Shown here: piece after piece, positions 2,647 to 40,931 of the stretch
How the letters are laid out: each line of letters begins with the position of its first letter
How positions within the stretch are numbered: the first letter of the stretch is position 1
DNA from: Patescibacteria group bacterium
GTDB taxonomy: Bacteria > Patescibacteriota > Minisyncoccia > UBA6257 > GWB1-50-10
DNA: 64,000 bases
Assembly (NCBI GenBank): GCA_040757555.1
Contig: JBFLWN010000002.1
Location: 83,116-147,115, forward strand
Direction of reading: 5' to 3'
Position numbers and translations under genes: made by a program
The notes under the pieces: model-generated
The model's input: only the letters and a program-made list of their open reading frames with translations
Databases searched by the model: none
What the model was told of the DNA's origin: nothing

Positions 2647-2688
2647 TATAAAAACATCTAATCATTCATAAATAAGGGAGTGTGTGTC

Positions 2689-3102
2689 ATGACACAAAAA
2701 GTATCTTTTCTGGAGAAGATAAAGATAATCCTAAAAGCAATTTCTTATCATCTTTTTCCTGAAAGTTATGAGAGCCTCAAACAATTTGCTGCAGAAGCAA
2801 GAAAGAGAGGTTTCACCGTAACAATCAGAGAGCTTTTCATTCCGAACACAAATTCTCAGAACTCCAATGATTTCTGTTCGTCTGTTTCGCAATGCGTCAC
2901 AGACGGAATGGTATATCTTCATTTGAAGGGTGTTGGAGATGGGAGAAAGCGAGATATCGTGTGTGATATTCCTGTCGGATATTGCAGTCTCCAATATGAC
3001 GACATGAAACGATTTCATGAGGAAAAAGAGAAAAAGATGAAAGAGATAATGGAAACATTAAAATCTTTCATTGTCCCGGTAAAAGTTCAGGAAATTTTCT
3101 AA
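2689..3102 (+). CDS. hypothetical protein (137 aa)
   Basis: ORF with ATG at 2689 preceded by AAGGGAG (2674-2680, spacing 8). The ORF-track start at 2680 is a GTG artefact. No recognisable motifs. Followed by a hairpin terminator. Confidence 0.5.
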   Translation: MTQKVSFLEKIKIILKAISYHLFPESYESLKQFAAEARKRGFTVTIRELFIPNTNSQNSNDFCSSVSQCVTDGMVYLHLKGVGDGRKRDIVCDIPVGYCSLQYDDMKRFHEEKEKKMKEIMETLKSFIVPVKVQEIF

Positions 3103-3184: not shown

Positions 3185-4984
3185 CTATACCACCTCCGCT
3201 TGATAACATTGTTCACAATAGACTATTTCTTTCCTTTCGGGTGCATATGATGTCTCGAATTCATTGGGGCACCTTCCTGTTCCATGTTGATGTTGTGCAG
3301 TGTTTTGATATATTCCATTCTCTGATTTTTCACCAGTACACTGACAAGCGCGATGCCAGAGCTTCATCGGATTGCGTTTGTTAAAACGTTCAAAGTGACG
3401 TGTATTCGGACATTTCCGTGGAAGCGGAATATTCATCCTCCGATAGAATGCTAACTCCTCGGGAATAATGCGAAATGCTTTTGTGCAATTATGTTCGGCA
3501 GTAACATCCAGAGAACCACGCTTCTCCCACGTTTCACATGAAATTATTTCATTCAAAATATCATCACCAATTGAAGAGATGCGTTCAGGAAGATCTTGAT
3601 ATGACTTCGTTGCAACATGTTCTTTTTCCTGCGGATCTTCCCATACATATCCAACTTTTTGAGCTTCTTCTTTTGTCATAGGAAAATGATCATATGCCGC
3701 CGTTGTATTATATGCGGAAGTGGAAAGATCGGGTGGATAAAATTCTCCAAATTTATATTCCCTCCCCTGTTTGTCCTTATACGGCATCGCATTCATGTGC
3801 TCAATAATCTTCGGAACAAGCGCTTCATATTCTTCTTTTGTGTATTGTTTATTCAGAATGCAATATTCTTTACTTTTTAATCCAATGCATCCAAATAAAT
3901 TTGAAGAGGAATAACAATTATCTACATATGTTAAGTCGTGACATGAATCCCACGTCTCGTTCGCAAAACGAATATTCGAAACATTGTATCCGCAATTTGA
4001 TGTTTCATATACAAGCTCGGTGGCTCTCCCCCAATATGAATAATCCATACAATCTTTCGCTTCAAAAATAGAAAGGAGATATTTTCCATTTTCGACTTCT
4101 CTCGACTGGTACGAGTCTTTCACCCTATTACAATTATTTAACCAATTCCCGGAAACATCGGTACTGTTTATATTGGTTACCGACTGATGAATAGTACCAG
4201 CCACAAGTGCGGAAAAACGTTCGGAAAGTTTTTGTAATCCGGCAGCGGTATCAAGATCCAACTCTTTTATCTTTTTTTCATACTCTTCCTTCGTATATTG
4301 CTTATTTAAAATTGAATATTGCGCATTTCTAAGTCCTGCGCACGCAATGCAGTTGGTACAATTTCTGCAATCGAAAAGAAAATAAGAATCGCGACACTGC
4401 TTACACTCCTGACAATATTGAACATTGTAACAATCATTAATATCGATGGATTGATACGCAAGTTCGGATTTATCTGCATTAAAACAATCGGCGCAGTCAC
4501 GTGAATTCCAGAGGAGGTATGAATAGCGGGAATTTTCATTGTAATTTGCCCGAATAAGTAAATAACAATCCTTGTTGTAACTTGCCCGATTACAATATTC
4601 ACTTCCCACAATATCTCCCTGACGAATAAGAGAGGCGCGAGGTACCCGCATTTTCATTTCCTTAAATTGCTCAAAAAACGGTTTATCAAAATTATATTCC
4701 CTTCCGTATGAAATTGGATCCCATTTATCGCTTCGATAACATTCGAGACAATACAGAGGAAAAGATGTTCCGGGCGGATACATCGCAATCATATTTTTTC
4801 CGCATAAACTGCAGGTGTTTTTATACAAATGCCGTTCATTACAAAACGAAAGTCTCCGCTGAAATCGACAGGGAGGACACCAGGTCGGCGCGGGCACTTT
4901 TATTTTTTCATAAAAATCAAAGTCCTCCGGTGCAATGGTAAACGAGTTTTTGCAGTTTTGACACTGTTTTGCCTCCGAATTCAT
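3185..4984 (-). CDS. Cys-rich multi-zinc-ribbon protein, paralog 1 of 5 (599 aa), family not recognised
   Basis: Long intact ORF. N-terminus MNSEAKQCQNCKNSF...PTWCPPCRFQRR is a rubredoxin-like CxxC...WCPxC knuckle pair. Central CRNCTNCIAC...GLRNAQYSILNKQYTKEEYE module, with a second copy degenerate (SSNLFGCIGLKSKEYCILNKQYTKEEYE). C-terminal FYRRMNIPLPRKCP...CQC...CEQCYQAEVV. About 40 Cys. No signal peptide or TM. Confidence 0.8.
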   Translation of the reverse strand: MNSEAKQCQNCKNSFTIAPEDFDFYEKIKVPAPTWCPPCRFQRRLSFCNERHLYKNTCSLCGKNMIAMYPPGTSFPLYCLECYRSDKWDPISYGREYNFDKPFFEQFKEMKMRVPRASLIRQGDIVGSEYCNRASYNKDCYLLIRANYNENSRYSYLLWNSRDCADCFNADKSELAYQSIDINDCYNVQYCQECKQCRDSYFLFDCRNCTNCIACAGLRNAQYSILNKQYTKEEYEKKIKELDLDTAAGLQKLSERFSALVAGTIHQSVTNINSTDVSGNWLNNCNRVKDSYQSREVENGKYLLSIFEAKDCMDYSYWGRATELVYETSNCGYNVSNIRFANETWDSCHDLTYVDNCYSSSNLFGCIGLKSKEYCILNKQYTKEEYEALVPKIIEHMNAMPYKDKQGREYKFGEFYPPDLSTSAYNTTAAYDHFPMTKEEAQKVGYVWEDPQEKEHVATKSYQDLPERISSIGDDILNEIISCETWEKRGSLDVTAEHNCTKAFRIIPEELAFYRRMNIPLPRKCPNTRHFERFNKRNPMKLWHRACQCTGEKSENGIYQNTAQHQHGTGRCPNEFETSYAPERKEIVYCEQCYQAEVV

Positions 4985-4998
4985 ATACCTATATTACC

Positions 4999-6696
4999 CT
5001 AAATTATCTCTGCGTTGTAGCACGTCTCGCAGTAGATGATCTCTGGCCTCTCCGACGAATAAGAAGTCTCAAATTTATTTACACATTGTCCATTATGACC
5101 GTGAGATAATTCTTTGCACATACATTGTCGATGCCAAAGTTTTCGAGGTGGACGAAGTGATATGCGCTTTCGATAGCGACATTCTGGACAATTTCTGGGG
5201 ATCGGAATATTCATTCGCTTATAAAACTCGACTTCGGGATCAACCACATTATAATTTCGATCGCATGAAATACAGGTGAGCGCTTCTTTTGTTATTGAAT
5301 CTGATACATCGACAATAGTATCGGGAATTTGATCGGGGGAAAGAGTTCCCTTTCCACGGGTTACTCGAACGTCATCCTGCCATCGAAATCCCCGAGAAAT
5401 TGCAATCTCTTTCTCCATCGGCATATAGATATCTCCATGGGTCTCGTTATATCCGAAAGGAGATAATGCGGGAGGAAAAAATTCACCATATTCTCCTCTC
5501 TTTTTCATTTCTTCAACGAGCTCACTTTTTATGTGCTCATACTCCTCTTCCGAATATTGCGTATTTAAAATACAATATTCTCCTTTTCTCACACCAACAC
5601 ATCCAAAAAGATTTTGTGAATTATGGCATGAGTCACAATAATCTATAAACGTGTTCTCATATGAGAGATGACAAAACCTCACGTTCGATGCATTGGTAAG
5701 TGCATGCGATTCATAGGTAAGCTCGGTTGTCCCCAATCCAACACTCAAAAGGTCCATCGAATCCTTCGCAATAACGATTGCGCTATGACGAACATTCTCG
5801 CTGTCGTAGGCATAATAGCCATTATATATATTTCGGGAATTATGAATTTCATCCCCCACCACATTCTGTGATTTTTCTATCTGTGCATATTTGTGTATTC
5901 CTTTATGTTGAATAATATCAATCCATTTTTTATACAGTTCCGCGCGTTCTCGATATGATCCCAAATTAAATTCTTTCAATTTTTTGTCGTACTCCTCTTT
6001 CGTCAATTGTTCATTTAAAAAACAGTATTTTTTATTCCTTAAATTCCAGCTCAAGAAACAATTTTGACAATTAGTACAATCAAAACAATATTTACACTCA
6101 ATACTGTCATGCACAAAAAAACAAAATTCACACTTAAAATCCCTATCACAATGAAAACATTCATATAAAAACTCTCCCCCTTCGTATGCAAGATTTACAT
6201 CACAGGAGTCTTTTGTGCCATTCCAACAATTGCTCAAATAAAATCCATTTTCACAATTAAAACAGTCAAATGAAAGATATACATTTTTATTGTCCGCCGA
6301 ATGGTTGGTATATTCACTGTTTACAGAATTTTTTCCAAGAAGTGCAACCCGCGGAACCTTTAATTGTAATTCTTTAAATTGTTCAAAAAACGGGCGATTT
6401 ATATCTATCTTCATTGCAAAATCCATAGGACTCCACGTATCTCCCCACCAACACGTATGACAATACACCTTATATGGTGCGTCAGGATGATAAATCGTCA
6501 CTGTTGATTTTCCACACAAATCACAGTTCCTTCGATAGAGGTTACGTTCATTTCGCCATGCATAACGCCTCATCTGCCGACAATCAGGACACCACATTGG
6601 TAGTGGAACATTTATTTTCCCGTAAAATTCAAAATCTTCACTCTCGAGGGTGAAGTTGTGTTTGCAGTTTTGACATTGCTTTGTCTCAGCATTCAT
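4999..6696 (-). CDS. Cys-rich multi-zinc-ribbon protein, paralog 2 of 5 (565 aa)
   Basis: Tandem with paralog 1 (14-nt gap). Same architecture: MNAETKQCQNCKHNF...MWCPDCR; CKYCFDCTNCQNC...LRNKKYCFLNEQLTKEEYD; CDSCHNSQNLFGCVGVRKGEYCILNTQYSEEEYE; C-terminal NCPECRYRKR...CETCYNAEII. The start codon and 12 upstream nt are identical to paralog 1. Confidence 0.8.
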   Translation of the reverse strand: MNAETKQCQNCKHNFTLESEDFEFYGKINVPLPMWCPDCRQMRRYAWRNERNLYRRNCDLCGKSTVTIYHPDAPYKVYCHTCWWGDTWSPMDFAMKIDINRPFFEQFKELQLKVPRVALLGKNSVNSEYTNHSADNKNVYLSFDCFNCENGFYLSNCWNGTKDSCDVNLAYEGGEFLYECFHCDRDFKCEFCFFVHDSIECKYCFDCTNCQNCFLSWNLRNKKYCFLNEQLTKEEYDKKLKEFNLGSYRERAELYKKWIDIIQHKGIHKYAQIEKSQNVVGDEIHNSRNIYNGYYAYDSENVRHSAIVIAKDSMDLLSVGLGTTELTYESHALTNASNVRFCHLSYENTFIDYCDSCHNSQNLFGCVGVRKGEYCILNTQYSEEEYEHIKSELVEEMKKRGEYGEFFPPALSPFGYNETHGDIYMPMEKEIAISRGFRWQDDVRVTRGKGTLSPDQIPDTIVDVSDSITKEALTCISCDRNYNVVDPEVEFYKRMNIPIPRNCPECRYRKRISLRPPRKLWHRQCMCKELSHGHNGQCVNKFETSYSSERPEIIYCETCYNAEII

Positions 6697-6720
6697 ATAC
6701 CTATATTAGTATAAAACCAA

Positions 6721-11223: not shown

Positions 11224-12621
11224 TTGAAAATAAGTATCATAGAAGCATCGTCTGGAAATAACCAGATCTTTGGTATTACGGATATGGAGCTTATTGGACC
11301 AATTTTAATTGGTACAGTACTTCGTAATGCCGGATACGATGTAAAAGTATTCAGAGAAACTTCGTCCGGCGGTGTTGATTGGGAATGGGTAATGAATTCC
11401 AACGTCGTTGGTATTTCTTGTATGACCCCATCGGCGTCTCGAGCATACGAAATTGGAGATATCATTAAATCAAAAGGAATTCCTGTAGTTATGGGAGGTA
11501 TACACCCCACACTTTGCCCCAATGAGTGTTTGGAACACTCGGATTTTGTTGTTCGCAACGAGGGCGAAGATACTGTCTTGGAAGTTCTCGAGTTTATAAG
11601 AAACATACCAAAAAATATTAACGAAATATTGGGTATTTCTTATAAAGACACAGAGGGTAATATACATCACAATCCAGACAGACCATTCATAAGGAATCTT
11701 GATGAATATCCGATACCTGACTTTTCATTGGTAAGTGGCATAAAGAAAAAAGGGATTATTGAAAAAACCCTATTTCTTCCGATAAAACCGATTTTTACCT
11801 CAAGGGGATGTCCTTACAAATGCACATTTTGTTCTGTACGAATCATGTTCGGAGGGAAATATAGGACAAAAAGTGTCGAGAGAATCATCAAAGAAATGCG
11901 TTACATGCGACAGTTCTCTAAAAATTTCTTTTTTGTCGATGACAATATTGGAGTCGATCAAAAAAGATTGAGGAATCTGTGTAATGCAATAATCGATAAT
12001 GGGCTAAACGATTGTGCGTGGAATGCGCAGGTAAGATTGGAAATTGCCAAAGACGAGAATCTACTGAAGCTCATGGCGCGGGCAGGATGTACACGGGTGC
12101 ATATTGGTTTCGAATCTGCAAGCGATACCTCACTTGAAGCGATGAAAAAAAATCAAACTGCAGGAGAAATGAAAAAAGCAATTGCAGCATTCCATAATGC
12201 AGGAATAAAGATTCATGGGATGTTTATTCTTGGATTTGATACCGATGATGTGTCTATTTTTGATAAAACTTTACATCATATCAGAAACATCAAGGTAGAT
12301 ACCGCACACTGTACCGCACTTACTATGTTCCCAGGAACCCCTGATTACAAAGAAATACAAAAACAAAATCGACTCATCCCAGGAATACAATGGAAAGACA
12401 TGAATATGTTCAACGTGACATTTCAGCCGGCGCAGATGACCCCTCGTGAACTACAAACAGGAATATTTGGTGTAATGAAAAAATTCTATAATTTCGGATA
12501 TCTCGTAAGAAACATAAGGAGAGAAGGATTTTTTGCATTGCAGGTATACCTTTATGTAAAACTCGCCTTGAAAAAGGCAAAATCACAACTTGATGAATTT
12601 CTTCAAAGATTTAATCTATAA
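11224..12621 (+). CDS. B12-binding-domain radical SAM protein (465 aa), TTG start
   Basis: AAGGAG at 11211-11216, then TTG at 11224. N-terminal cobalamin-binding-like domain and a CxxxCxxC radical SAM motif (SRGCPYKCTFCSV). Confidence 0.75.
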   Translation: MKISIIEASSGNNQIFGITDMELIGPILIGTVLRNAGYDVKVFRETSSGGVDWEWVMNSNVVGISCMTPSASRAYEIGDIIKSKGIPVVMGGIHPTLCPNECLEHSDFVVRNEGEDTVLEVLEFIRNIPKNINEILGISYKDTEGNIHHNPDRPFIRNLDEYPIPDFSLVSGIKKKGIIEKTLFLPIKPIFTSRGCPYKCTFCSVRIMFGGKYRTKSVERIIKEMRYMRQFSKNFFFVDDNIGVDQKRLRNLCNAIIDNGLNDCAWNAQVRLEIAKDENLLKLMARAGCTRVHIGFESASDTSLEAMKKNQTAGEMKKAIAAFHNAGIKIHGMFILGFDTDDVSIFDKTLHHIRNIKVDTAHCTALTMFPGTPDYKEIQKQNRLIPGIQWKDMNMFNVTFQPAQMTPRELQTGIFGVMKKFYNFGYLVRNIRREGFFALQVYLYVKLALKKAKSQLDEFLQRFNL

Positions 12622-12707: not shown

Positions 12708-13919
12708 TTAATCTTCAACAACCCCAGTGTTTTTGTAAACACCTGCCCTATATCTACGCGCAATGTACAAATATAACGGGAAAAGTACTAAAAATAGAAT
12801 AACTCCTAAATATAGAAACCCGTACTGATAAGACACTTTCTCAATCATAAACCCAACTCCAAAACTTGAGATTGCAGCAACAATTTGATCAATTTGTGAA
12901 CCAGTTGATAATAATGTGGCCTTAAAATTACTTGATTTGATAATATCAAGTTGATAGCCTTCATCAACTTTATTTAGCCCCCACTGAAACGCATTTATAA
13001 CAATAAAAGTAAGTACTACTATCCACCAAGTTGATGTTATCCCTAAAATAAGAATCAAAAATGTATAAACAATAAATTGGAACTTATAAAAGGAAAGTAG
13101 TGTAACATATTTTTTAATTTTTCCACTATAAGCAAGTATAAGTGAAGCAAACGCTCTTCCTATACCAAAAAACACTCCATACCAAATTACAGGTATTTCA
13201 AGAAGTATCTGATATGGAGCACGGAACCCACCAATACTAAATAATGTTCCACTAATAATTCCAGAAAATAGAGCAATACTGAAGTAATTGAGATGATATC
13301 CTTCTTTTACTACTTGCTTAAAATTTGTTGCCCCAATTTCTTTAATATGCTCCTGTGGCACAGGTGGTATCACTAAAGAAATGGCCGCCAATAATCCTAC
13401 CAAATCAACTACAAGAGCTATAAGAAATGGAGTCTTATAACTCACACCTACCAAAAATGGTATTAATACCATAAATATAATAGGAACAGCAAAACCAATT
13501 GAACTAATCTTCCCCATCACTTTCGTGTAGTCTTTTTCTCTGTTGAGACCCCGTAAAGTCTCATGCATAAAAGCACTCCCCGTGCCACTATGAAAAGCCG
13601 AACTCATACTTAAAAAAATCGCCCCAAGTATTAAGAAAATGATATCATCTGCGACAAGAAAAAATATTGTCGATAATAACATCAAAACTCGAGATATAAT
13701 CAACGCGTATTTGTGTCCGATTTTATCGGAAGCATATCCACTGGGGATCTCAAAAATAAAACCAGAAATACTTCCCGCGAGAAGAATAACTCCAATTATT
13801 TTTGGCGTTACGTCTGGTATGGTTAAATAATAAGCTCCTAAAATTGCAACAAAAATTCTCTTATTGGCAATTAACAAGAGAGTATATTTCCAAATATTAC
13901 TTTGTAGTTTCTTCTGCAT
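12708..13919 (-). CDS. MFS-type transporter (about 403 aa)
   Basis: Around 12 hydrophobic segments. The ORF-track N-terminal extension (MVECDLPKVETRVRFPYPAQKFL) is read-through of tRNA-Gly, so the start was trimmed to MQKKLQSN at 13919. Confidence 0.7.
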   Translation of the reverse strand: MQKKLQSNIWKYTLLLIANKRIFVAILGAYYLTIPDVTPKIIGVILLAGSISGFIFEIPSGYASDKIGHKYALIISRVLMLLSTIFFLVADDIIFLILGAIFLSMSSAFHSGTGSAFMHETLRGLNREKDYTKVMGKISSIGFAVPIIFMVLIPFLVGVSYKTPFLIALVVDLVGLLAAISLVIPPVPQEHIKEIGATNFKQVVKEGYHLNYFSIALFSGIISGTLFSIGGFRAPYQILLEIPVIWYGVFFGIGRAFASLILAYSGKIKKYVTLLSFYKFQFIVYTFLILILGITSTWWIVVLTFIVINAFQWGLNKVDEGYQLDIIKSSNFKATLLSTGSQIDQIVAAISSFGVGFMIEKVSYQYGFLYLGVILFLVLFPLYLYIARRYRAGVYKNTGVVED

Positions 13920-13931
13920 GAGGAATTTTTG

Positions 13932-14002
13932 TGCGGGATACGGGAATCGAACCCGTGTCTCAACCTTGGGAAGGTCGCATTCTACCACTGAACCAATCCC
14001 GC
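13932..14002 (-). tRNA. tRNA-Gly (anticodon CCC)
   Basis: Minus-sense GCGGGATTGGTTCAGTGGTAGAATGCGACCTTCCCAAGGTTGAGACACGGGTTCGATTCCCGTATCCCGCA. Acceptor GCGGGAT/ATCCCGC, anticodon loop TTCCCAA, T-loop TTCGATT. Confidence 0.85.
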
Positions 14003-21877: not shown

Positions 21878-22579
21878 TTATTTCATATTCTCTAACAAAT
21901 CTAAATCCCCATCCAATACCTCTTCTACGCGAGAAATTTTAATCCCCGTCGCATGATTTTTGACTTGTTTATAGGGATGCAACACATATGATCGAATTTC
22001 ATGTCCCCACTCTGGTTTTACCTTCACTTTCAGATTCTCTATGGCGGTTTCGTGTTTTTCTTGCATAAGTGCAATAAGTTTAATCTTCAAAAGTTCCATT
22101 GCCTTATCCCTATTCGCGCTTTGTGAGCGCTCCGATTGCGAAGAAATCACAATTCCAGTCGGTAAATGACTCACCCGCACGGCAGTTTCCACTTTATTTA
22201 CATTTTGCCCACCGGGCCCCGATGAACGGAAAAAATCGGTTTTTATATCTTTCTCGGGAATCTGGATTTTTGAAACTTCCACCTGTGGCAAAATCGGCAA
22301 CACTTCAACAAGTGCAAATGAGGTGTGTCTCAGTTTTTTTGAATCGAACGGAGAAATACGTACCAAACGATGCACCCCCGATTCCCCTTTCAAATATTCA
22401 TACACCCCATCACCCCTCAGAGAAATTGTGATATCATTCACGAATTGTTTTTTCCATCCTTTTTTATCCGCGCATTTTTCATACATCCGAAGAAGCATCT
22501 GTGCCCAATCTTTTGCATCATCTCCCCCTGCCCCCGCGAGCACCGAAAGATACACGCCGTTATAATTTGTTGAATTCAT
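21878..22579 (-). CDS. prfB: peptide chain release factor 2 lacking N-terminal domain 1 (233 aa)
   Basis: SPF tripeptide (RISPFDSKK) and GGQ (SSGPGGQNVNKV). Begins at the residues that follow the frameshift site in canonical RF2 (YLSVLAGAGGDDAKDW). An in-frame stop lies 2 codons upstream and only 30 nt separate it from the upstream gene. Confidence 0.8.
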   Translation of the reverse strand: MNSTNYNGVYLSVLAGAGGDDAKDWAQMLLRMYEKCADKKGWKKQFVNDITISLRGDGVYEYLKGESGVHRLVRISPFDSKKLRHTSFALVEVLPILPQVEVSKIQIPEKDIKTDFFRSSGPGGQNVNKVETAVRVSHLPTGIVISSQSERSQSANRDKAMELLKIKLIALMQEKHETAIENLKVKVKPEWGHEIRSYVLHPYKQVKNHATGIKISRVEEVLDGDLDLLENMK

Positions 22580-22608: not shown

Positions 22609-24387
22609 TTAAACCACTTCCGCCTGATAACAACTCTCACAATAGACAATCTCTGTTCTATCGGGAGAATAATTTGTTTCAAACCCATTTGGACAAGAAT
22701 CCTTTCCGTGAATATGTGTAGAAGTATTTTGGTATATTCCATTTTCTGATTTCTCACCTCCACACTGACACTTTCGATACCAATGTTTTATCGTATTACG
22801 ACGTTTTAATCTAGTATAATGCCGACAATTGGGACAAAGCCGCGGAAGCGGAATATTCATAAGTTTATAAAATTCAAGTTCTGACCGAATAATTCTAAAT
22901 GCTGTTGTACAATTATCTTTACATTTTCCTTCATGAGCGCACCCAATAACCTCGTCAAGGATACCGTCACCCGCATCTTTCGCATATGCAGGAAGTTCAC
23001 TTGGTTTTCTTGTAATAGAGTAATTCTTTGTATCAACTATGTGCCAATTAAATCCATTTTCCATTGCCTCTTCCATTGTGAATGGTAAATGTTCTTGATC
23101 CGGAGTCTCATTATATCCAAGGGGTGAAAACTCTGCGGGAAAAAATTCTCCATACTTGTAACTCCTTCCTATTTTATCCTTATAAGGTACCCCACTCATC
23201 TGCTGAACCAATTTTTCAACGAGTACCCCATATTCTTCTTTTGAATATTGTTTGTTGAGAATACAGTATTGTTTATTCCGAAGACCAAAACATCCAAAAC
23301 AATCCGAGGTGGAGATGCAGCTCCCACAATATTGAAGATTTTTTACATTCGTCCAACATTGAAAGCAAAATTTAATATTATATGCACCATCACCGATTTG
23401 ACTACTTTCATACACCAATTCATTACCGATAAAAGTGGAAAGATCATAACAATCTTTATTGGGGCCCGCCTGAAGATACTGACAATACTTAATATCTTCG
23501 CCATCTCTTATTAAAAATGAATTTTTTACATTTTTTGATTGATTAATATAATCCCCCGTAACATCTACATTTTTTGTTCCCTCCATAAATTTTACCGGAA
23601 AATTAAGCCAAAAATTTATTGCCTTCATTTTATATTCCTCAAACAGATCATAGGAACCAGAGAAAATTTTTTTTATTTCTTCTCCATATTCTTCTTTTGA
23701 ATATTGTTCGTTAAAAATACAATAACTTTTGTTTCGCATATTTACACACCCAAAACAATCAGAACATCCCCTTAAATTCTTCGAAAAATAAATATCAAAA
23801 CAGTCTTCACAATTTTCTGAATACACCGCCCTATTGCACCGCGTAAGCCAGAATCCTTCATAACAGAGTTCACTGTGAGAAATATGGGAGTTGTCGAAAC
23901 AACTCTTCGAATAGTCGATGCCGTTTGAATATGCAGAATCTTCCGAATAATTCCCGTTAAAACAAAGATAGCAATTTTTAAAGCCGGTACACTGATTCGA
24001 ATAATCACTTGCTACCGGGTTTATTACGCTTTTTGCGCGCCAAGGAACATCATGCCAAAGTTCAAGAATTTGTTGTAAAAAAGGTTTTGTGAAATCAATA
24101 TTTCTTCCATAATCCATTGGATCCCATTTATCAGAATTCCATATATCGAGTTCATACACCTTTATAGGTGCATCCGGAGCACATTGAGAAAAAATCATTT
24201 CCCCAGAAAAATCGCTTTTTCGCTTGTACAGAAAATGCTCATTACGAAATGCAAATCGTCGTTGAAAACGACATATCGGACACCACGTTGGTGGAGGCAC
24301 ATCTATTTTTTTGTAGAAATCAAAATCTTCACTCTCAATAGTGAAGTTATTATGGCAATTCTGACACGTTTTTACCTCCGAACTCAT
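22609..24387 (-). CDS. Cys-rich multi-zinc-ribbon protein, paralog 3 of 5 (about 592 aa)
   Basis: MSSEVKTCQNCHNNFTIESEDFDFYKKIDVPPPTWCPICRFQRR. Central CSDCFGCVNMRNKSYCIFNEQYSKEEY and CGSCISTSDCFGCFGLRNKQYCILNKQYSKEEY. C-terminal LCPNCRHY...CESCYQAEVV. The second and third N-terminal CxxC pairs are lost (SDFSGE, ELDIW). The start was trimmed from the track's 24495 because that extension reads through a tRNA-Thr 3'-end copy. Confidence 0.75.
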   Translation of the reverse strand: MSSEVKTCQNCHNNFTIESEDFDFYKKIDVPPPTWCPICRFQRRFAFRNEHFLYKRKSDFSGEMIFSQCAPDAPIKVYELDIWNSDKWDPMDYGRNIDFTKPFLQQILELWHDVPWRAKSVINPVASDYSNQCTGFKNCYLCFNGNYSEDSAYSNGIDYSKSCFDNSHISHSELCYEGFWLTRCNRAVYSENCEDCFDIYFSKNLRGCSDCFGCVNMRNKSYCIFNEQYSKEEYGEEIKKIFSGSYDLFEEYKMKAINFWLNFPVKFMEGTKNVDVTGDYINQSKNVKNSFLIRDGEDIKYCQYLQAGPNKDCYDLSTFIGNELVYESSQIGDGAYNIKFCFQCWTNVKNLQYCGSCISTSDCFGCFGLRNKQYCILNKQYSKEEYGVLVEKLVQQMSGVPYKDKIGRSYKYGEFFPAEFSPLGYNETPDQEHLPFTMEEAMENGFNWHIVDTKNYSITRKPSELPAYAKDAGDGILDEVIGCAHEGKCKDNCTTAFRIIRSELEFYKLMNIPLPRLCPNCRHYTRLKRRNTIKHWYRKCQCGGEKSENGIYQNTSTHIHGKDSCPNGFETNYSPDRTEIVYCESCYQAEVV

Positions 24388-36380: not shown

Positions 36381-37148
36381 TTATCGAGTACTTATGAATA
36401 CTTTCGTACGCGAGACGTCAATTTCATCGGTAATAAACTTATTTCCCGGAAATGAGATGACAAAGGGTTTTTCCTCAAGTCCACTCAAATTAGATAGTAC
36501 TGTTTGTCCGGGAAAAACCTCCATATCATATTGGTCATATAATATCGCGGTAATCCTCACCTCCGAAGCAATGATAGAACTCTGATTTTTTAGACTTCCC
36601 GATACACGCACTCCCTGATCTGTCTTTTTTGTCTCCAATCCCGATGATAACACCACATCAGAGCGAAGTGTTTCATATGCCTTTTTCCACGATACATCCG
36701 AAATGAGTAATTCGATTTTATTAATATCTTTTACAGAAGAAGAAATTCTTGGTTCAAATATAATTTTTTTCTCAAGTGCAAAAATTGCATCATTCCCTGA
36801 TATTCTTTCTATCTCGCGATTTCTTATATCATAAACGACAAATGTATACGAAAATTTATCTGAAGAAAAAAACTGATTTGAATTTAATATTTCTGCAAGT
36901 AAAATAACCTTCCCATTATCAAGCGAAAATATACGAACATCTCCCATGTGTTTTAATGGGACAAGCTCAGTAATTTCGCATTTGGTACACCCTCCCCCAC
37001 AGTCAATTCCGGTTTCGTTTTGATTTTGGATGCCATCGGAACATGTTGGCGTACCTATAATTAATCCACCGAATAACCAATAAAAAACCAATCCAAATAT
37101 ACAAAGGTAAAACATTCCATATGCAAACTTTTTTACTCCGCGTGTCAT
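36381..37148 (-). CDS. hypothetical membrane-anchored protein (255 aa)
   Basis: N-terminal TM (FYLCIFGLVFYWLFGGLIIG), a Cys-cluster (CSDG...CGGGCTKC), then an extracytoplasmic domain. Sits between ftsW and Cys-rich paralog 4. Confidence 0.45.
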   Translation of the reverse strand: MTRGVKKFAYGMFYLCIFGLVFYWLFGGLIIGTPTCSDGIQNQNETGIDCGGGCTKCEITELVPLKHMGDVRIFSLDNGKVILLAEILNSNQFFSSDKFSYTFVVYDIRNREIERISGNDAIFALEKKIIFEPRISSSVKDINKIELLISDVSWKKAYETLRSDVVLSSGLETKKTDQGVRVSGSLKNQSSIIASEVRITAILYDQYDMEVFPGQTVLSNLSGLEEKPFVISFPGNKFITDEIDVSRTKVFISTR

Positions 37149-37307: not shown

Positions 37308-39125
37308 TTATAAAAATTCCGATTTGTAACAATCATGACAATATATAATTTCTTCTTGTTCGGGAGAAAATGTTGTTTCAAATTCGTTGGGACACGATTT
37401 ATCCCCATGAAAATGCTCTGTGGTATTTGTATAGGGTAATAGTTTTTGGTCTTTTATCTTCGGTTGATTACACTGACACCTTCTCCTATAAAGATGAAAC
37501 CCGTTTCGCCATGAAAGTATCTCAGCTGTTCTGCAACTGGGACAAAGACGAGGGAGTGCGATATTCATTTCCCGATGAAATGCCAACTCTTCTTTGGTAA
37601 TACGAAATGCCTTTGTACATCCATCAAGACACGCGTTGTGCTCGGTCTGCCACACATTTGTAGAATGTTCACATTCAATAATTTCATCCAAAATTGAATC
37701 AGGAACATCATTTATATGATCCGGGATATCGCCATACTTCAATGAAATTTTATAATTTCGTTCCGCTTCGTCCCGCCACTGCCATCCCTCCTCGAGGATT
37801 TCCTCTTTGGTTCTTGGATACCAAGGGAATGCTGCAGACTCGTTGTATGCATATGCGGAAAATTCTGGTGGAAAAAACTCTCCGAATTTATATATTCTTC
37901 CTTTTTTATCGATATACGGCATATCGTCCATATGTACTCGTATCACTTTGGACAATGTTTCGTATTCTTCTTTTGTATACTGTCGGTTCAATATACAGTA
38001 TTTTTTATTCTGAATTGATACACACCCGATTGAATGAGACGAATTTCTTGCCCAATCACAATACATTGTGTCAATAGAATTATTTCCTCCCGCTGAAAAG
38101 AAACATCGCTCAACATTCCTTGTCATCGCATAAATTTCATAAAGAAGTTGAGAATTTATCCCCCCTCCACCCACATCATAACTGTCTTTCAAACCCAACC
38201 CTCCAAAGTAAATATATTTACAATTTTCCACGTTATCGAGTGCGGAGAAACATGTTTTGCAATTTTTTGTATCGCGGATAATATCGCCCGTAACATTTTG
38301 ACTATTCAATACGTGGGCATATCGTCGTGGGAGAGAAAGATAAAATGCCCTAAATTTTGTTTTTGCCTCTTGAAGTTTTTTATAACTTCCCAAATCCCAA
38401 TATTTTAATTTCGAGAAATATTCCTCTTTCGAAAATTTTTCGTTAAATATACAATATTTTTGTTTTCTTAAATTCACACATCCAAAACAATCGGAACACC
38501 CGACACAATCAAAAAGAAACAGAGAATCGAGACATTCATCCGAGAAATATCCAAACTGTGTCCGATAGAGACGATTTGAGTGAAGCGAGAAATACACGTG
38601 ATCCGAATTATCGACAACATAAGAATCATACGTATCCTTTGAAAATAAAAGTCCATAATCAAACTGGGAATTCTCCGAAAAATAACTCCAAAATACATAG
38701 TAGCAATTTTTAAGACTCTGGCCCGCGTGTGAATATTCACTTTCAATAAGATTTGTACCGGTAAATGCCGGTCGCGGAACCGCTTCAAGAAGTTTCCGAT
38801 ATTGTACAAAAAATGGCTGCGAAAAATCATATTCCCGACCGTAATCCATAGGATCCCATTTATCGGAAAACCAGCATTCACGACAATACACGGTAAAAGA
38901 CGTTCCTGGGGCGTGAATAGTGATGATCTGTTTTCCGCACAGTCCGCACACGTTTTTATAGAGCGTCCGCTCTTCTCTCCACATCATTCGTCTTAAGTTT
39001 CGACACTCCGGACACCATGTCGGCGCCGGTACATCAATTTTTTTGTAGAAATCAAAATCCTCCGGTTCAATAATAAATTCCGTCTTGCAGTTTTGGCAGA
39101 TCCTATTTTCTTGTTGGTTTTCCAT
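37308..39125 (-). CDS. Cys-rich multi-zinc-ribbon protein, paralog 4 of 5 (605 aa)
   Basis: MENQQENRICQNCKTEF...PTWCPECRNLRR...CGLCGK...CRECW. CVGCSDCFGCVNLRKQKYCIFNEKFSKEEY, with the second module degenerate (SSHSIGCVSIQNKKYCILNRQYTKEEYE). C-terminal LCPSCRT...CHDCYKSEFL. Confidence 0.8.
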   Translation of the reverse strand: MENQQENRICQNCKTEFIIEPEDFDFYKKIDVPAPTWCPECRNLRRMMWREERTLYKNVCGLCGKQIITIHAPGTSFTVYCRECWFSDKWDPMDYGREYDFSQPFFVQYRKLLEAVPRPAFTGTNLIESEYSHAGQSLKNCYYVFWSYFSENSQFDYGLLFSKDTYDSYVVDNSDHVYFSLHSNRLYRTQFGYFSDECLDSLFLFDCVGCSDCFGCVNLRKQKYCIFNEKFSKEEYFSKLKYWDLGSYKKLQEAKTKFRAFYLSLPRRYAHVLNSQNVTGDIIRDTKNCKTCFSALDNVENCKYIYFGGLGLKDSYDVGGGGINSQLLYEIYAMTRNVERCFFSAGGNNSIDTMYCDWARNSSHSIGCVSIQNKKYCILNRQYTKEEYETLSKVIRVHMDDMPYIDKKGRIYKFGEFFPPEFSAYAYNESAAFPWYPRTKEEILEEGWQWRDEAERNYKISLKYGDIPDHINDVPDSILDEIIECEHSTNVWQTEHNACLDGCTKAFRITKEELAFHREMNIALPRLCPSCRTAEILSWRNGFHLYRRRCQCNQPKIKDQKLLPYTNTTEHFHGDKSCPNEFETTFSPEQEEIIYCHDCYKSEFL

Positions 39126-39149: not shown

Positions 39150-40931
39150 TTATACTATTTCCGCTTGATAGCATTGTTCGCAATAGACAATCTCTTTTCG
39201 GTCAGGAGAATAACTCGTTTCGAATTCATTTTGACACGCCCCTTCGTGTTGATGCTTCCCGGTATTTGTGTATATTCCATTTTCACTTTTTATACCCGCA
39301 CATTGGCACGTTCGCTTCCAAAGTTTTAGAGGATTTCGTTGTTTTAGTCGAGCGTAATGACGACAATTTGGACAGAGATTTGGAAGTGGAATTCCATTTT
39401 TCTTATAAAGCTGAAATTCTTGAGGAATAATTTTAAATGCAATCGTGCATTGGTCGTTACAATTTCCTCCATGGGCGCACGCGATAATATCATTAGTTAT
39501 TGAGTCTGAAATATTATTTATATCATCCGGAATATTTTCCGATTTTATGGTTACTTTATAATCTCTCTCTTCTCTATCTCTCCAGGTATATCCCTTTTTT
39601 ATCGTCTCTTCTTTGGTGAGGGGAAAATATTCCTGCACCGCTGCTTCATTATAAGCAAATGGGGAAAATTCTATGGGAAAAAATTCTCCATATTTATATT
39701 CCCTTCCCGCCGAATCTTTATATGGATGTTCATTCATCTGAGCAATAATTTCCCCTACTTTATGCTCATAATCTTCCTTCGTGTACTGTTTGTTTAAAAT
39801 ACAATATTGCTTATTGCGAAGTCCTATACATCCAAAACAATTCGAACAATTTCTCAAAAAATAACAGTAACGAATTGAATAGCTATCCCATACATTTCCC
39901 GAAAACGCAGCGTCATGCATATTGCTCCCCGCGTCCATAACATCATAGCTCTTTTCCATATTCACCCCAACCGCATATGCATCATAAAGATCTCTCATGT
40001 CGGTAACCCCATATATTACAAAACGCGAATCTTCCAATGGCCCCTCTATATCGAAACAATCCTTGCTATTTTTTACCTCTTTCAAATAATCGCCTGTGGC
40101 ATTAACAATGTGACGTGAGTTGGAAAACTTTTTTGGATATTTGAGAACAAGAGAAGAAAATTTTTCTTTGAAATTTTCATTTCCCGTCTTTGTGTTTAAA
40201 TGAAGTGTATTTACCTCATTTTTATATTCTTCTTCGGATAATTTTCTATTTAAAATACAATACTTACTGTTGCGCAAACCGACACAACCAATGCAATATT
40301 GGCAATTTCGACAGTCATAACAATATTTCGAATCAATACAAGTATCGGAAAGAATAAGATGGTCGCTGTTATAACACCCTTCAGAATCGATAAGTTCATA
40401 ACATCCCTCATTCTTACTCGATCCAATCATGTCGGATGAATTTTTGTTTTTGATTGAATGATAAAGGTAAGACGAATCTTCATTCATATCACTCGCAAAA
40501 TTCAAATAACAGTTTTTTGATTGATAGGTGAAATTGCAATAATCACTTTCAACCCCATCAATATTAATGAGTGCGGGAGTAGGCACCTTATAAAGAAGTT
40601 CCTTCCATTGTTCGAGAAATGGACGCGATGGATCATATACCGACCCAAATTCCATCGGATCCCACTTATCACTCCACCAATATGTGTGGTCATATACTTT
40701 TGCTGGTGATTCTGGCGAATACATAGAAATAAGCATCTCCTCGTGACCAGGGGCATCACATTTTCTTTTATAGAGATTACGTTCGTTTCTGAAACTAAGC
40801 CGACGCTGTAATCTACACTCCGGACAAAACGTCGGGGCGGGAACATCCATTTTTTTGTAGAAATCAAAATCCTCACTCTCAATCGTGAACTGATTTTTGC
40901 AATTCTGACATTGTTTAGTTTCTGAATTCAT
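39150..40931 (-). CDS. Cys-rich multi-zinc-ribbon protein, paralog 5 of 5 (593 aa)
   Basis: MNSETKQCQNCKNQF...PTFCPECRLQRR. The second and third N-terminal CxxC pairs are lost (CDAPGH, DHTYW). CRNCQYCIGCVGLRNSKYCILNRKLSEEEY and NCSNCFGCIGLRNKQYCILNKQYTKEDYE. C-terminal LCPNCRHYARLKQRN...CEQCYQAEIV. Confidence 0.8.
   Translation of the reverse strand: MNSETKQCQNCKNQFTIESEDFDFYKKMDVPAPTFCPECRLQRRLSFRNERNLYKRKCDAPGHEEMLISMYSPESPAKVYDHTYWWSDKWDPMEFGSVYDPSRPFLEQWKELLYKVPTPALINIDGVESDYCNFTYQSKNCYLNFASDMNEDSSYLYHSIKNKNSSDMIGSSKNEGCYELIDSEGCYNSDHLILSDTCIDSKYCYDCRNCQYCIGCVGLRNSKYCILNRKLSEEEYKNEVNTLHLNTKTGNENFKEKFSSLVLKYPKKFSNSRHIVNATGDYLKEVKNSKDCFDIEGPLEDSRFVIYGVTDMRDLYDAYAVGVNMEKSYDVMDAGSNMHDAAFSGNVWDSYSIRYCYFLRNCSNCFGCIGLRNKQYCILNKQYTKEDYEHKVGEIIAQMNEHPYKDSAGREYKYGEFFPIEFSPFAYNEAAVQEYFPLTKEETIKKGYTWRDREERDYKVTIKSENIPDDINNISDSITNDIIACAHGGNCNDQCTIAFKIIPQEFQLYKKNGIPLPNLCPNCRHYARLKQRNPLKLWKRTCQCAGIKSENGIYTNTGKHQHEGACQNEFETSYSPDRKEIVYCEQCYQAEIV

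What the first reader, a model, noticed from the sequence alone, without database searches (positions are those of the whole stretch)
3185..6696. Tandem pair of very Cys-rich 565-599 aa proteins from a five-member paralogous family I cannot place in any named family
Paralogs 1 and 2 (this pair) are the same family as those at 22609-24387, 37308-39125 and 39150-40931. All five sit on the same strand and share conserved blocks end to end. The N-terminal block is KQCQNCKxxFTIExEDFDFYKKIDVPxPTWCPxCRxQRRxxFRNERxLYKRxCxxCGK. Two central modules read [DN]CxNCxxCxGCxGLRNKxYCI[LF]NxQY[TS]KEEYE. A conserved middle block reads MPYKDKxGRxYK[FY]GEFFPxEFSPxxYNE ... FPxTKEE ... GxxWxD. The C-terminal block is FRIIxxELxFYxxMNIPLPRxCPxCRxxxRxxxRNxxKLWxRxCQC ... 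KSENGIYQNT..H.HG...CPNEFETSYSP.R.EI[VI]YCExCYQAE[VI]V. Each protein has about 35-40 cysteines and no signal peptide or TM segment. Five long, well-conserved intact paralogs in 40 kb of a streamlined genome argues for real, selected function. I recognise only generic rubredoxin-like/zinc-ribbon knuckles and nothing that names the family.
Basis: partly seen in the sequence, partly recalled or inferred. Interest (0 to 1): 0.85.

Follow-up and report, generated by a model that had tools for sequence, protein, structure and literature searches.

The report
Unnamed zinc-finger beta-helix protein family
Five intact copies of a large, unnamed protein family found only in tiny Parcubacteria-type bacteria: zinc fingers at both ends, two narrow cysteine-lined beta-helices in the middle, function unknown but often encoded beside DNA/protein-pumping ATPases.

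Summary
Five intact ORFs of 565-605 aa lie on the minus strand, with 32-36 Cys each and 37-47% mutual identity. The window comes from a Patescibacteria MAG.

No Pfam, NCBIfam, PHROG, PADLOC or PDB family covers these proteins. Only the terminal fingers give sub-threshold hits, to zf_Tbcl and zf_Tbcl_2.

The family is large: at least 5,446 clusters at 50% identity. Every named source is Parcubacteria-group, and every named member is "hypothetical".

Two AlphaFold2 models (pTM 0.86 and 0.90) and module HMMs agree on one architecture:
- a finger pair;
- a 12-residue beta-helix plus helix;
- a second beta-helix plus helix;
- an acidic middle domain;
- a second finger pair.

In the first helix, solenoid Cys occur only at every third position, and Ser often replaces them. 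The closest fold is the Tenebrio antifreeze helix, and the match is weak.

Other genomes carry up to nine tandem copies. The copies are ancient orthogroups, not recent duplicates.

The genes repeatedly sit beside orphan VirD4/TraD-like ATPases: 23 of 80 family-centred loci and 4 of 5 ATPase-centred loci. The window has no such ATPase.

Best guess, at low confidence: a soluble zinc-dependent adaptor or scaffold that works with those ATPases. The function is unproven.

The parts
3185..4984 (-). p1, 599-aa family member (p1-type orthogroup: 'CPNTRHF', one ZnA_C cysteine lost, insert before C500)
   Evidence: ORF and translation. It is 100% identical to P0001, NCBI 'hypothetical protein AB1333_01475 [Patescibacteria group bacterium]'. 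AF2 model has pLDDT 86.5 and pTM 0.86. The subfamily signature is shared with the L001 ortholog.
4999..6696 (-). p2, 565-aa family member (short p2-type: simple CxSC knuckle, lacks the PYKDKxGR and GEKSENGIY inserts)
   Evidence: AF2 model has pLDDT 90.1 and pTM 0.90. The DUF763-FAM-FAM order is also seen in L046.
22609..24387 (-). p3, 592-aa family member (second N-terminal finger has lost all four Cys ligands: 'KRKSDFSGE...VYELDIW')
   Evidence: The FAM-prfB-ftsE order is also seen in L067.
37308..39125 (-). p4, 605-aa family member (few Cys in the first beta-helix; the ladder is filled by S/T/V/L)
39150..40931 (-). p5, 593-aa family member (p5-type: 'CDAPGH...VYD', degenerate second finger conserved in orthologs)
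   Evidence: 59.9-62% identical orthologs in L051, L030 and L047 share the motif
4835..4975 (-). p1 residues 4-50: ZnA_N treble-clef finger (C8xxC11...C36xxC39)
   Evidence: Sub-threshold zf_Tbcl PF13451 hits. The full ligand set is present in 97% of 97 diverse members. The ZnA_N HMM also hits the C-terminal copy at i-E 1e-8 to 1e-11.
4709..4834 (-). p1 residues 51-92: ZnB_N finger, CxxC-x17-CxxC (C58, C61, C79, C82)
   Evidence: Sub-threshold zf_Tbcl_2 / TIGR04272 hits. The ligands are complete in only 56% of the family and are lost in p3 and p5.
4280..4603 (-). p1 residues 128-235: beta-helix A, nine rows of 12 residues ending in the cap motif KxYxILNxQYTKEEY
3827..4150 (-). p1 residues 279-386: beta-helix B, homologous repeat of helix A
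   Evidence: solA and solB HMMs cross-hit at i-E 1e-16 to 1e-23. This region is confident in the p2 model.
3545..3799 (-). p1 residues 396-480: conserved acidic middle domain (MPYKDKxGRxYKYGEFFP...YNE...FPLTKEE...GYxWxD)
   Evidence: Low column entropy and mean net charge -5.4. No Pfam or PDB match.
3365..3544 (-). p1 residues 481-540: ZnA_C, basic second copy of the ZnA finger (net charge about +5)
3188..3364 (-). p1 residues 541-599: ZnB_C. The core ligands C547, C572, C590 and C593 are invariant, and a CxC/HxH insert is optional. The protein ends at a fixed C-terminus ...CYQAEVV.
4982..4996 (-). 15-nt start context TAATATAGGTATATG of p1. The identical string occurs at the p2 start (6694-6708).
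   Evidence: (2 matches, 0.13 expected)

Best explanation
SHOWN.
- The five ORFs are intact, ancient paralogs of a very large protein family that appears restricted to the Parcubacteria group of Patescibacteria.
- Each is a soluble, mildly acidic protein of about 590 aa with one fixed architecture: (i) an N-terminal pair of treble-clef zinc fingers, ZnA and ZnB; (ii) two homologous, narrow 12-residue-per-turn beta-helices, each capped by a helix that starts at the motif NxQYTKEEY; (iii) a conserved acidic middle domain; (iv) a second, basic ZnA-ZnB pair that ends at an invariant C-terminus.
- In helix A the cysteines sit only at every third position of the 12-residue register. Ser, Leu, Ala and Val replace them freely, except in the last two coils.

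INFERRED.
- The invariant fingers bind Zn. They are ZnA_N, ZnA_C and the four-Cys core of ZnB_C.
- The third-position residues point into the helix core, by analogy with the Tenebrio antifreeze helix.
- The fingers are the working ends. The beta-helices form a rigid, paralog-specific spacer or recognition surface.
- The protein therefore acts as a cytoplasmic zinc-dependent adaptor or scaffold that holds a macromolecular client, either nucleic acid or protein.
- Because of repeated gene linkage, it most likely works together with the orphan, soluble VirD4/TraD/CedD-like FtsK-HerA ATPases of these bacteria. Some of those ATPases carry the same ZnB-type finger.
- The separate orthogroups would serve different clients or form a hetero-oligomer.
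For: Family and architecture:
- Named members and the best genome loci are all Parcubacteria-group lineages.
- Two independent AF2 models have pTM 0.86 and 0.90 and complementary confident regions.
- Internal duplications are proven by module HMMs.
- 12-residue register: in helix A, Cys occur only at columns 1, 4, 7 and 10 (autocorrelation 0.56 at lag 3 and 0.48 at lag 12). Non-Cys residues there are mainly S, L, A and V. Helix B follows the same register less strictly.
- Ligand conservation: ZnA_N 97%; ZnB_C core 100%; ZnB_N only 56%; solenoid Cys frequently Ser.
- A CxxC-x17-CxxC finger of this type was shown by ICP-MS to bind Zn in M. mazei small proteins (PMC12704099).

Soluble and probably cytoplasmic: no hydrophobic segment, pI 5.6-6.0.

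Ancient, non-redundant paralogs:
- For 96% of 122 arrayed genes, the best match in another species beats the best same-locus copy (median 56% vs 45%).
- Subfamily signatures are conserved in orthologs.

ATPase link:
- 28 VirD4/TraD-like ATPase genes lie in 23 of 80 family-centred loci (886 kb in total), and 17 of them are directly adjacent to a family gene.
- A published survey found about 2 T4CP homologs per CPR genome (10.1101/2025.01.22.634366).
- The link recurs in several different contexts: SecDF-sigma/HARE-DUF8128-ATPase-FAM, and DnaK-ATPase(700, ZnF)-FAM-ATPase(500)-DnaJ.
- Reverse test: 4 of 5 ATPase-centred loci carry 2-3 family genes within 10 kb.
- The ~700-aa ATPases carry a significant zf_Tbcl_2 finger (41.8 bits against a 27-bit cutoff).
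Against: - No experiment, expression data or interaction data exist.
- The 64-kb window holds five family genes and no such ATPase. There the genes sit among housekeeping genes: DUF763, prfB-ftsEX, tpiA, ftsW.
- One ATPase-centred locus (L087) has the same backbone without any family gene.
- Gene order in these small, mostly one-strand genomes is conserved for reasons other than function. The sampled loci are phylogenetically related, so the enrichment is not a clean statistic.
- Nucleic-acid binding is not shown. Only ZnA_C is clearly basic.
- The top fold matches are all extracellular beta-solenoids, which fits the export rival.
Confidence: 0.4

Rival explanations
1. Exported or injected substrates. 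The paralogs are non-Sec cargo of a translocation machine built around the VirD4/TraD-like ATPases, with DUF8128 as the membrane partner and possibly the neighbouring ABC exporter. They act on the cell surface or inside the host of these episymbionts. The Cys-ladder helices would be disulfide- or metal-stabilised outside the cell.
For: - Arrays of many substrate-like genes sit next to one coupling-protein-like ATPase.
- There is no signal peptide, as expected for T4SS or T7SS-type cargo.
- The C-terminus is precisely conserved.
- The best fold matches are secreted proteins: curli CsgA, the insect antifreeze protein, adhesins and tailspikes.
- DUF8128 (TM), SecDF and an ABC exporter occur in the same clusters.
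Against: - CxxC treble-clef fingers are typical of intracellular proteins.
- The family evolves slowly, with orthogroups 52-62% identical across candidate phyla, unlike effectors.
- No immunity-like small genes follow the copies in the window.
- Only 148 of 5,713 CPR T4CP homologs lie near virB4.
- A zinc-loaded beta-helix would be hard to unfold for translocation.
Confidence: 0.2
2. Free-standing nucleic-acid-binding regulators of transcription, RNA or DNA. They would use four zinc fingers per molecule, and the paralogs would have different targets. The ATPase linkage would be mere synteny.
For: - There are four treble-clef fingers, and ZnA_C is basic (about +5).
- Paceibacteria have few classical regulators (background knowledge).
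- The window copies are embedded in housekeeping operons without ATPases.
Against: - The overall proteins are acidic, with net charge -7 to -14 in the window copies.
- About 590 aa with two solenoids is unlike known bacterial regulators.
- The ATPase linkage recurs in several independent contexts.
Confidence: 0.15
3. A metal-cluster, redox or metal-storage protein. The inward Cys of full CxxCxxCxxC coils would hold Fe, Fe-S or Zn along the helix axis.
For: - The coil C206-C209-C212-C215 has Cys at all four ladder positions of the register and is 77-94% conserved. A second such coil (176-185) is common.
- These are anaerobic organisms (background knowledge).
Against: - Ladder Cys are often Ser (13-33% Ser at six of the eight sites examined near the end of helix A). 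Only 15-30% of members keep the full sets.
- p4 has almost none in helix A.
- There is no ferredoxin-type CxxCxxCxxxCP motif and no Pfam Fe-S hit.
Confidence: 0.1
4. An enzyme of unknown activity, with the conserved middle domain (GEFFP...YNE...W) as its active site. The paralogs would have different substrates.
For: - The middle domain is among the best-conserved parts, with invariant G413, P417, Y425, N426 and W448.
- Ancient, stable orthogroups resemble isoenzyme series.
Against: - No similarity to any catalytic family or fold was found.
- p2-type members delete part of this domain.
- The invariant residues are mostly aromatic, Gly or Pro, so they look structural.
Confidence: 0.1
5. Non-functional remnants, or a selfish repeated ORF.
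For: None beyond the multicopy state.
Against: - The ORFs are intact.
- Codon-position GC (roughly 0.42-0.44, 0.35-0.39, 0.28-0.34 at positions 1-3) follows the same declining pattern as rpoB and fusA, although position-1 GC is lower (0.56-0.59 in those genes).
- Thousands of full-length homologs exist.
- Orthogroup conservation is strong.
- There are no phage or MGE homologs.
Confidence: 0.01

Closest known systems
Tenebrio molitor antifreeze protein beta-helix (PDB 1ezg; repeat TCTxSxxCxxAx)
   Different: There is no Thr-x-Thr ice-binding ladder and no signal peptide. Cys is not present in every coil and is swapped for Ser. Identity is 13%, and no Pfam antifreeze hit was found. Here the helix is embedded between zinc-finger pairs in a bacterial protein that is probably cytoplasmic.
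zf_Tbcl (PF13451) and zf_Tbcl_2 (PF23477) / TIGR04272 CxxC-x17-CxxC treble-clef fingers, e.g. the Zn-binding small proteins of Methanosarcina mazei
   Same: The ligand pattern and spacing match: C58-x2-C61-x17-C79-x2-C82. The model positions that match are the same, and Zn binding is documented for this finger type.
   Different: All hits fall below the curated cutoffs (at most 21.3 bits against 27, at most 19.1 against 24, at most 18.6 against 36). The known members are small single-domain proteins. Here four fingers flank about 400 aa of novel sequence.
Pentapeptide-repeat proteins (quadrilateral beta-helix, e.g. MfpA/Qnr DNA mimics)
   Different: The period is 12 (4 x 3) rather than 20 (4 x 5). 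There is no A(D/N)LXX motif and no Pfam Pentapeptide hit.
Clients or substrates of VirD4-type coupling proteins (e.g. XVIPCD-bearing T4SS effectors; relaxosome proteins)
   Same: Multiple paralogs with conserved terminal modules are encoded next to a coupling-protein-like ATPase.
   Different: The ATPases here are soluble, orphan (not near virB4) and below every specific family cutoff. No XVIPCD, BID or relaxase domains are present, and no translocation has been shown.

Membership tests
zf_Tbcl (Pfam PF13451) | Whole-protein score at or above the gathering cutoff (24 bits) | tested here: not met
   Best scores are 18.5 bits (p4, residues 7-46) and 19.1 bits (family consensus).
zf_Tbcl (Pfam PF13451) | Two CxxC knuckles in a treble-clef arrangement | tested here: met
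   C8xxC11...C36xxC39 is present in all five copies and in 97% of 97 diverse members. The fold was not inspected at coordinate level.
zf_Tbcl_2 (PF23477) / TIGR04272 CxxC-x17-CxxC | Score at or above the curated cutoff (27 / 36 bits) | tested here: not met
   Best scores are 21.3 bits (Pfam) and 18.6 bits (NCBIfam).
zf_Tbcl_2 (PF23477) / TIGR04272 CxxC-x17-CxxC | CxxC-x17-CxxC spacing | tested here: met
   p1, p2 and p4 have C58-x2-C61-x17-C79-x2-C82. p3 and p5 have lost the ligands.
Insect antifreeze (TmAFP-type) beta-helix | 12-residue coil with inward small residues at period 3 | tested here: met
   In helix A, Cys occur only at columns 1, 4, 7 and 10 of a 12-residue register, with S/L/A/V otherwise. 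The AF2 strand pattern agrees. Inward orientation is inferred from the period, not read from coordinates.
Insect antifreeze (TmAFP-type) beta-helix | One Cys(i)-Cys(i+6) disulfide in every coil, a Thr-x-Thr ice-binding face, and secretion | tested here: not met
Hexapeptide (LbH) acyltransferases / pentapeptide repeats | Period 18 (3 x 6) or 20 (4 x 5) with family motifs | tested here: not met
   The period is 12. Foldseek hits to LpxD and GlmU have TM 0.07-0.11 and E above 5e-3. There is no Pfam hit.
Ferredoxin-type Fe-S proteins | CxxCxxCxxxCP motif with invariant ligands | tested here: not met
   The motif here is CxxCxxCxxC, with ligands frequently replaced by Ser or Leu. There is no Pfam Fe-S hit.
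Anti-phage defence or phage protein families | A match to PADLOC or PHROG models, or homologs in phage genomes | tested here: not met
   No PADLOC hit. PHROG hits have E of 0.005 or worse. No tblastn hit in 50,697 phage records, and none in IMG/VR.
Substrate or partner of a VirD4-type coupling ATPase | Genetic linkage to the ATPase | tested here: inconclusive
   Linked in 23 of 80 family-centred loci and 4 of 5 ATPase-centred loci. Absent from the window itself.
Substrate or partner of a VirD4-type coupling ATPase | Physical interaction or translocation | not testable with these tools
   No multimer prediction or experiment was available.

The most novel reading that the evidence does not exclude
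Parcubacteria-group bacteria may possess a lineage-specific machine. In it, a set of at least five ancient zinc-finger/beta-helix paralogs would act as client-specific adaptors, or as cargo, for exapted and orphan VirD4/TraD-like ATPases. Together with DUF8128 and the DnaK/DnaJ-linked cluster, these would move DNA or protein across the envelope at the symbiont-host interface. The helix itself may be a new structural type: a square 12-residue beta-helix whose all-Cys coils hold metal ions on the helix axis.
Probability: 0.2. Interest if true: 0.85.

Novelty: categorically new. Interest (0 to 1): 0.64.

Why it matters
The family is one of the most heavily invested gene sets in a major branch of the Candidate Phyla Radiation. 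This window has five copies in 64 kb. Other genomes, some with contigs of about 0.9 Mb, carry up to nine copies in 22 kb. At least 5,400 clusters at 50% identity exist worldwide. Yet the family has no name, no domain model and no solved or recognisable full-length fold.

It offers three things:
- A predicted cytoplasmic Cys-ladder beta-helix that would be a new structural type.
- A concrete handle on what the roughly two orphan T4CP-like ATPases per CPR genome do. A recent survey left this question explicitly open.
- A marker family for Parcubacteria-type genomes.

If it takes part in DNA or protein trafficking, it bears directly on how these ultra-small symbionts live off their hosts.

Tried and rejected
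- **Phage origin.** One homolog is annotated 'putative phage protein'. Rejected: no tblastn hit in INPHARED phages, no confirmed hit in IMG/VR, and no PHROG family.
- **Defence system.** No PADLOC hit.
- **Recent tandem amplification or arms-race family.** Rejected because 96% of arrayed genes are closer to a gene in another species than to a same-locus copy.
- **Pseudogenes.** Rejected.
- **Hexapeptide acyltransferase fold.** The Foldseek hits to LpxD and GlmU have TM of 0.11 or less and are meaningless.
- **PDB sequence relatives.** None for the full profile or for the N- and C-terminal consensus pieces. The IL-23 receptor and MJ0883 hits are chance.
- **Pfam scan of consensus sub-domains at E up to 10.** Nothing for either helix or for the middle domain.
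- **Other carriers of the modules.** In the window, none. In 80 loci, only the ZnB finger of the ATPases.
- **AFDB Foldseek search.** Could not be run because the library was not installed.
- **Contig context for p1 (P0001).** Not on record.
- **Literature searches.** Searches for cysteine-rich, zinc-finger or paralogous families in Patescibacteria or Parcubacteria, and for PF13451/PF23477, found no description of this family.

Full report
**1. Observation**

The two ORFs of the finding and the three further paralogs are all present on the minus strand, each with an ATG start and no internal stop:

| Copy | Coordinates | Length | Cys |
|---|---|---|---|
| p1 | 3185-4984 | 599 aa | 36 |
| p2 | 4999-6696 | 565 aa | 36 |
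| p3 | 22609-24387 | 592 aa | 36 |
| p4 | 37308-39125 | 605 aa | 32 |
| p5 | 39150-40931 | 593 aa | 32 |

- The five align end to end at 40-47% identity to p1 in the MAFFT alignment, or 37-47% pairwise by BLASTP. The quoted sequence blocks are present.
- Hydropathy shows no TM-like or signal-like segment (maximum 19-residue Kyte-Doolittle value 1.33). pI is 5.6-6.0.
- Codon-position GC declines from position 1 to 3 as in rpoB and fusA, although position-1 GC is lower.

**2. Source organism and context**

- p1 is 100% identical to an NCBI protein: 'hypothetical protein AB1333_01475 [Patescibacteria group bacterium]', on a 148-kb contig.
- The window is a core chromosome stretch. GC is 37-41%, GC skew is uniformly negative, and almost every gene lies on the minus strand.
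- The paralogs sit 14-29 nt from housekeeping neighbours:
  - DUF763 -> p2 -> p1
  - tRNA-Thr -> p3 -> prfB-ftsE-ftsX
  - tpiA -> p5 -> p4 -> a 255-aa hypothetical -> ftsW
- rpoB/rpoC, fusA, rpsL/rpsG, ssb, scpA/B and recQ lie nearby.
- Parts of this order recur in other genomes: DUF763-FAM-FAM in L046 and FAM-prfB-ftsE in L067.

**3. No named family**

- Pfam and NCBIfam give only sub-threshold hits at the termini:
  - zf_Tbcl PF13451, at most 19.1 bits against a cutoff of 24.
  - zf_Tbcl_2 PF23477, at most 21.3 bits against 27.
  - TIGR04272, at most 18.6 bits against 36.
- The roughly 400 central residues match nothing, even when family-consensus pieces are scanned at E up to 10.
- PHROGs and PADLOC give nothing usable.
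- A profile of 70 members finds no PDB sequence at E up to 10, and consensus pieces find only chance hits.
- No phage record or IMG/VR contig encodes a relative.
- Every named member is 'hypothetical protein', apart from one automated 'putative phage protein'.
- Six full-text literature searches found no description of the family.

**4. Size and distribution**

- The word-indexed search saturated: 7,953 of the 8,000 candidates it scored had E of 1e-3 or better.
- An exhaustive HMM search of 1.84 billion 50%-identity representatives found 5,446 proteins at E of 1e-3 or better and 2,296 at 1e-30 or better. Nearly all are 550-600 aa and matched end to end. In 136 full-length representatives the medians are 570 aa, 37 Cys and 6.3% Cys.
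- In GTDB species representatives, at least 556 stretches encode a relative.
- The best 80 loci that carry a specific lineage name come from Staskawicz-, Nomura-, Giovannoni-, Lipton-, Jorgensen-, Sungii- and Niyogibacteria, and from Paceibacteria/Minisyncoccia. These are Parcubacteria-group lineages. Many other loci carry only generic labels ('bacterium', or an automatic 'uncultured Candidatus Saccharibacteria' label on TPA assemblies).
- One 2.2-kb contig in a 'Gammaproteobacteria' MAG (L054) is probably mis-binned.

**5. Architecture**

Two AlphaFold2 models were built:
- p1 with 70 sequences: pLDDT 86.5, pTM 0.86.
- p2 with 97 diverse sequences: pLDDT 90.1, pTM 0.90.

They agree on the layout and are complementary. 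Beta-helix A is confident in p1 and beta-helix B is confident in p2.

Module HMMs prove the internal duplications:
- ZnA_N resembles ZnA_C (i-E 1e-8 to 1e-13).
- solA resembles solB (i-E 1e-16 to 1e-23).
- ZnB_N resembles ZnB_C only weakly.

The layout, in p1 numbering, is:

| Residues | Module |
|---|---|
| 4-50 | ZnA |
| 51-92 | ZnB |
| following | linker helix |
| 128-235 | beta-helix A, then a helix |
| 279-386 | beta-helix B, then a helix |
| 396-480 | acidic middle domain (mean net charge -5.4) |
| 481-540 | basic ZnA' (about +5) |
| 541-599 | ZnB', ending at the fixed C-terminus ...CYQAEVV |

Charges are, and the layout draws.

**6. The cysteines**

- When each helix is written in rows of 12 ending at the cap motif NxQYTKEEY, helix A has Cys only in columns 1, 4, 7 and 10. 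The autocorrelation is 0.56 at lag 3 and 0.48 at lag 12. Helix B follows the register less strictly.
- The other residues in those columns are mainly Ser (22%), Leu, Ala and Val.
- This is the inward-ladder pattern of the 12-residue Tenebrio antifreeze helix (TCTxSxxCxxAx).
- Across 97 diverse members:
  - ZnA_N keeps all four ligands in 97%.
  - The ZnB_C core (C547, C572, C590, C593) is kept in 100%.
  - ZnA_C is complete in 74%.
  - ZnB_N is complete in only 56%.
  - The CxC/HxH insert of ZnB_C is present in about 65%.
  - The solenoid Cys are often Ser. Only the last coils (C206/C209/C212/C215 and C357/C366/C375) are 77-96% Cys.
- So most of the 'extra' cysteines are ladder residues of the helix register, not independent knuckles.
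- Zn binding by a CxxC-x17-CxxC finger of this type has experimental support in M. mazei small proteins (PMC12704099).

**7. Paralogy**

- In 80 family-centred loci, 49 hold two or more copies, and some hold up to seven on one strand.
- L082 has seven or more in a row, and L084 has nine in 21.7 kb.
- These are not recent duplicates. For 96% of 122 arrayed genes, the best match in another species exceeds the best same-locus copy (median 56% vs 45%).
- Each window paralog has a 52-62% identical counterpart elsewhere, against 37-47% to its in-genome paralogs.
- Orthogroup signatures are shared across species:
  - p5-type: 'CDAPGH...VYD', with a degenerate ZnB_N.
  - p3-type: 'KSDFxGE...IYE'.
  - p1-type: 'CPNTRHF'.
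  - p2-type: a short CxSC knuckle and two deletions.
- Several ancient, non-redundant orthogroups are therefore maintained in genomes whose contigs reach only about 0.9 Mb.

**8. Gene neighbourhood elsewhere**

- Clustering the non-family ORFs of the 80 loci gave one dominant neighbour: a soluble P-loop ATPase of 485-700 aa. It occurs as 28 genes in 23 loci, and 17 of those genes are directly adjacent to a family gene on the same strand.
- The ATPase hits TrwB_AAD_bind, TraG-D_C, DUF87/HerA and T4SS-DNA_transf. In NCBIfam it hits TraD, VirD4-like and CedD below their cutoffs.
- The ~700-aa form carries a significant zf_Tbcl_2 finger (41.8 bits). This is the same finger type as ZnB.
- Two main arrangements recur:
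  - SecD-SecF-sigma70_r4/HARE-HTH-DUF8128(TM)-~170 aa-ATPase(~485)-FAM (L004, L016, L038; L084 and L085 place a FAM gene before the ATPase).
  - DnaK-ATPase(~700, ZnF)-FAM x2-3 (with or without an ABC exporter)-ATPase(~500)-DnaJ (L039, L066, L086, L089, L090).
- The ~500-aa ATPase is itself very conserved, at 85-92% identity over more than 120 clusters.
- Reverse test: of five loci centred on that ATPase, chosen only for long contigs, four contain 2-3 family genes within 10 kb and one (L087) contains none.
- A published survey counts 5,713 VirD4-type T4CP homologs in 2,918 CPR genomes, about two per genome. Only 148 lie near virB4. The authors state that exaptation to other functions cannot be excluded (10.1101/2025.01.22.634366).
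- Twenty-eight ATPase genes in 886 kb of family-centred DNA is therefore roughly a ten-fold enrichment.
- Three caveats apply:
  - The loci are phylogenetically related.
  - Gene order in these genomes is conserved for many reasons.
  - The window itself has five family genes and no such ATPase.

**9. Interpretation**

Shown:
- a real, very large, lineage-restricted family;
- a fixed architecture of two finger pairs flanking two 12-residue beta-helices and an acidic domain;
- ancient orthogroups;
- recurrent linkage to orphan VirD4/TraD-like ATPases.

Inferred:
- Zn occupancy of the invariant fingers.
- A role as a rigid zinc-dependent adaptor or scaffold for a macromolecular client.
- Cooperation with those ATPases (confidence about 0.4).

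Rivals:
- exported or injected cargo of the same ATPases (0.2);
- autonomous nucleic-acid-binding regulators (0.15);
- a metal-cluster or redox protein (0.1);
- an unknown enzyme (0.1);
- non-functional remnants (about 0.01).

**10. Novelty and score**

- No family-level, architecture-level or full-length fold-level match exists in any library I could search. Only the component domain types (treble-clef fingers, a narrow beta-solenoid) are known kinds.
- At the level of protein family and architecture, I rate it categorically new.
- Two reservations apply. The function is unknown, and the AlphaFold-database fold search could not be run.
- Interest is 0.64. It is a high-investment, highly conserved unknown in a major uncultured lineage, with an unusual predicted fold and a testable link to an open question: what the orphan CPR coupling-protein ATPases do. 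There is no experimental anchor yet.

Noticed in passing
window 21878-22579 (-): The release-factor gene just downstream of p3 encodes only 233 aa. It matches the RF2 model (TIGR00020) at positions 115-346 of 353 (294 bits, below the 370-bit cutoff), so domain 1 is missing. The p3 stop lies 29 nt upstream, which leaves no room for an N-terminal part. The homolog in L067 is also short (268 aa).
   Followed up: partly
window 4982-4996 and 6694-6708 (-): The identical 15-mer TAATATAGGTATATG spans the start codons of p1 and p2 (2 matches, 0.13 expected). It may be a shared translation-initiation context or a remnant of the duplication.
   Followed up: partly
L086, L088, L089, L090 (and L039, L066); L087 as counter-example: A conserved cluster runs DnaK - VirD4/TraD-like ATPase (~700 aa, with a significant zf_Tbcl_2 finger and a long low-complexity tail) - family genes (with or without an ABC exporter) - a second ATPase (~500 aa, 85-92% identical across many lineages) - DnaJ. 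In L088 the family genes and the ABC exporter lie upstream of DnaK instead. Two coupling-protein-like ATPases thus sit between dnaK and dnaJ.
   Followed up: partly
L004, L016, L038, L084, L085: A conserved run SecD-SecF - sigma70_r4/HARE-HTH protein - DUF8128 (PF26449, N-terminal TM) - ~170-aa protein - soluble T4CP-like ATPase (~485 aa). DUF8128 may be the membrane partner of the soluble ATPase.
   Followed up: no
L084 7465-8134 and 13596-14228: Small RHH/PIN and PIN_3 toxin-antitoxin-like genes are interspersed within a nine-copy family array.
   Followed up: no
window 11224-12621 (+): A B12-binding radical SAM enzyme. Its best matches, all sub-threshold, are to HpnJ, BchE and PhpK-type methyltransferases. 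It is one of the few plus-strand genes in the window.
   Followed up: no
window 36381-37148 (-) and 2680-3102 (+): A 255-aa ORF between p4 and ftsW has only a weak FxLYD-domain hit (20.3 bits against a 23-bit cutoff). A 140-aa plus-strand ORF downstream of p1 has no hit and may not be a gene.
   Followed up: no
L054 (CAYZAZ010000094.1, 2185 bp): A full-length family gene sits on a 2.2-kb contig of a MAG labelled 'uncultured Gammaproteobacteria'. This is most likely a mis-binned Patescibacteria contig rather than a true occurrence outside the group.
   Followed up: no
window 1-64000: Nearly all genes are on the minus strand and GC skew is negative in every 4-kb bin (cumulative -2.15). This is consistent with the window lying within a single replichore.
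   Followed up: no
window 12708-13988 (-) / 13931-14002 (-): The mechanical GTG-start ORF of the MFS transporter overlaps tRNA-Gly(CCC) by about 58 nt, so the true start is probably further downstream.
   Followed up: no
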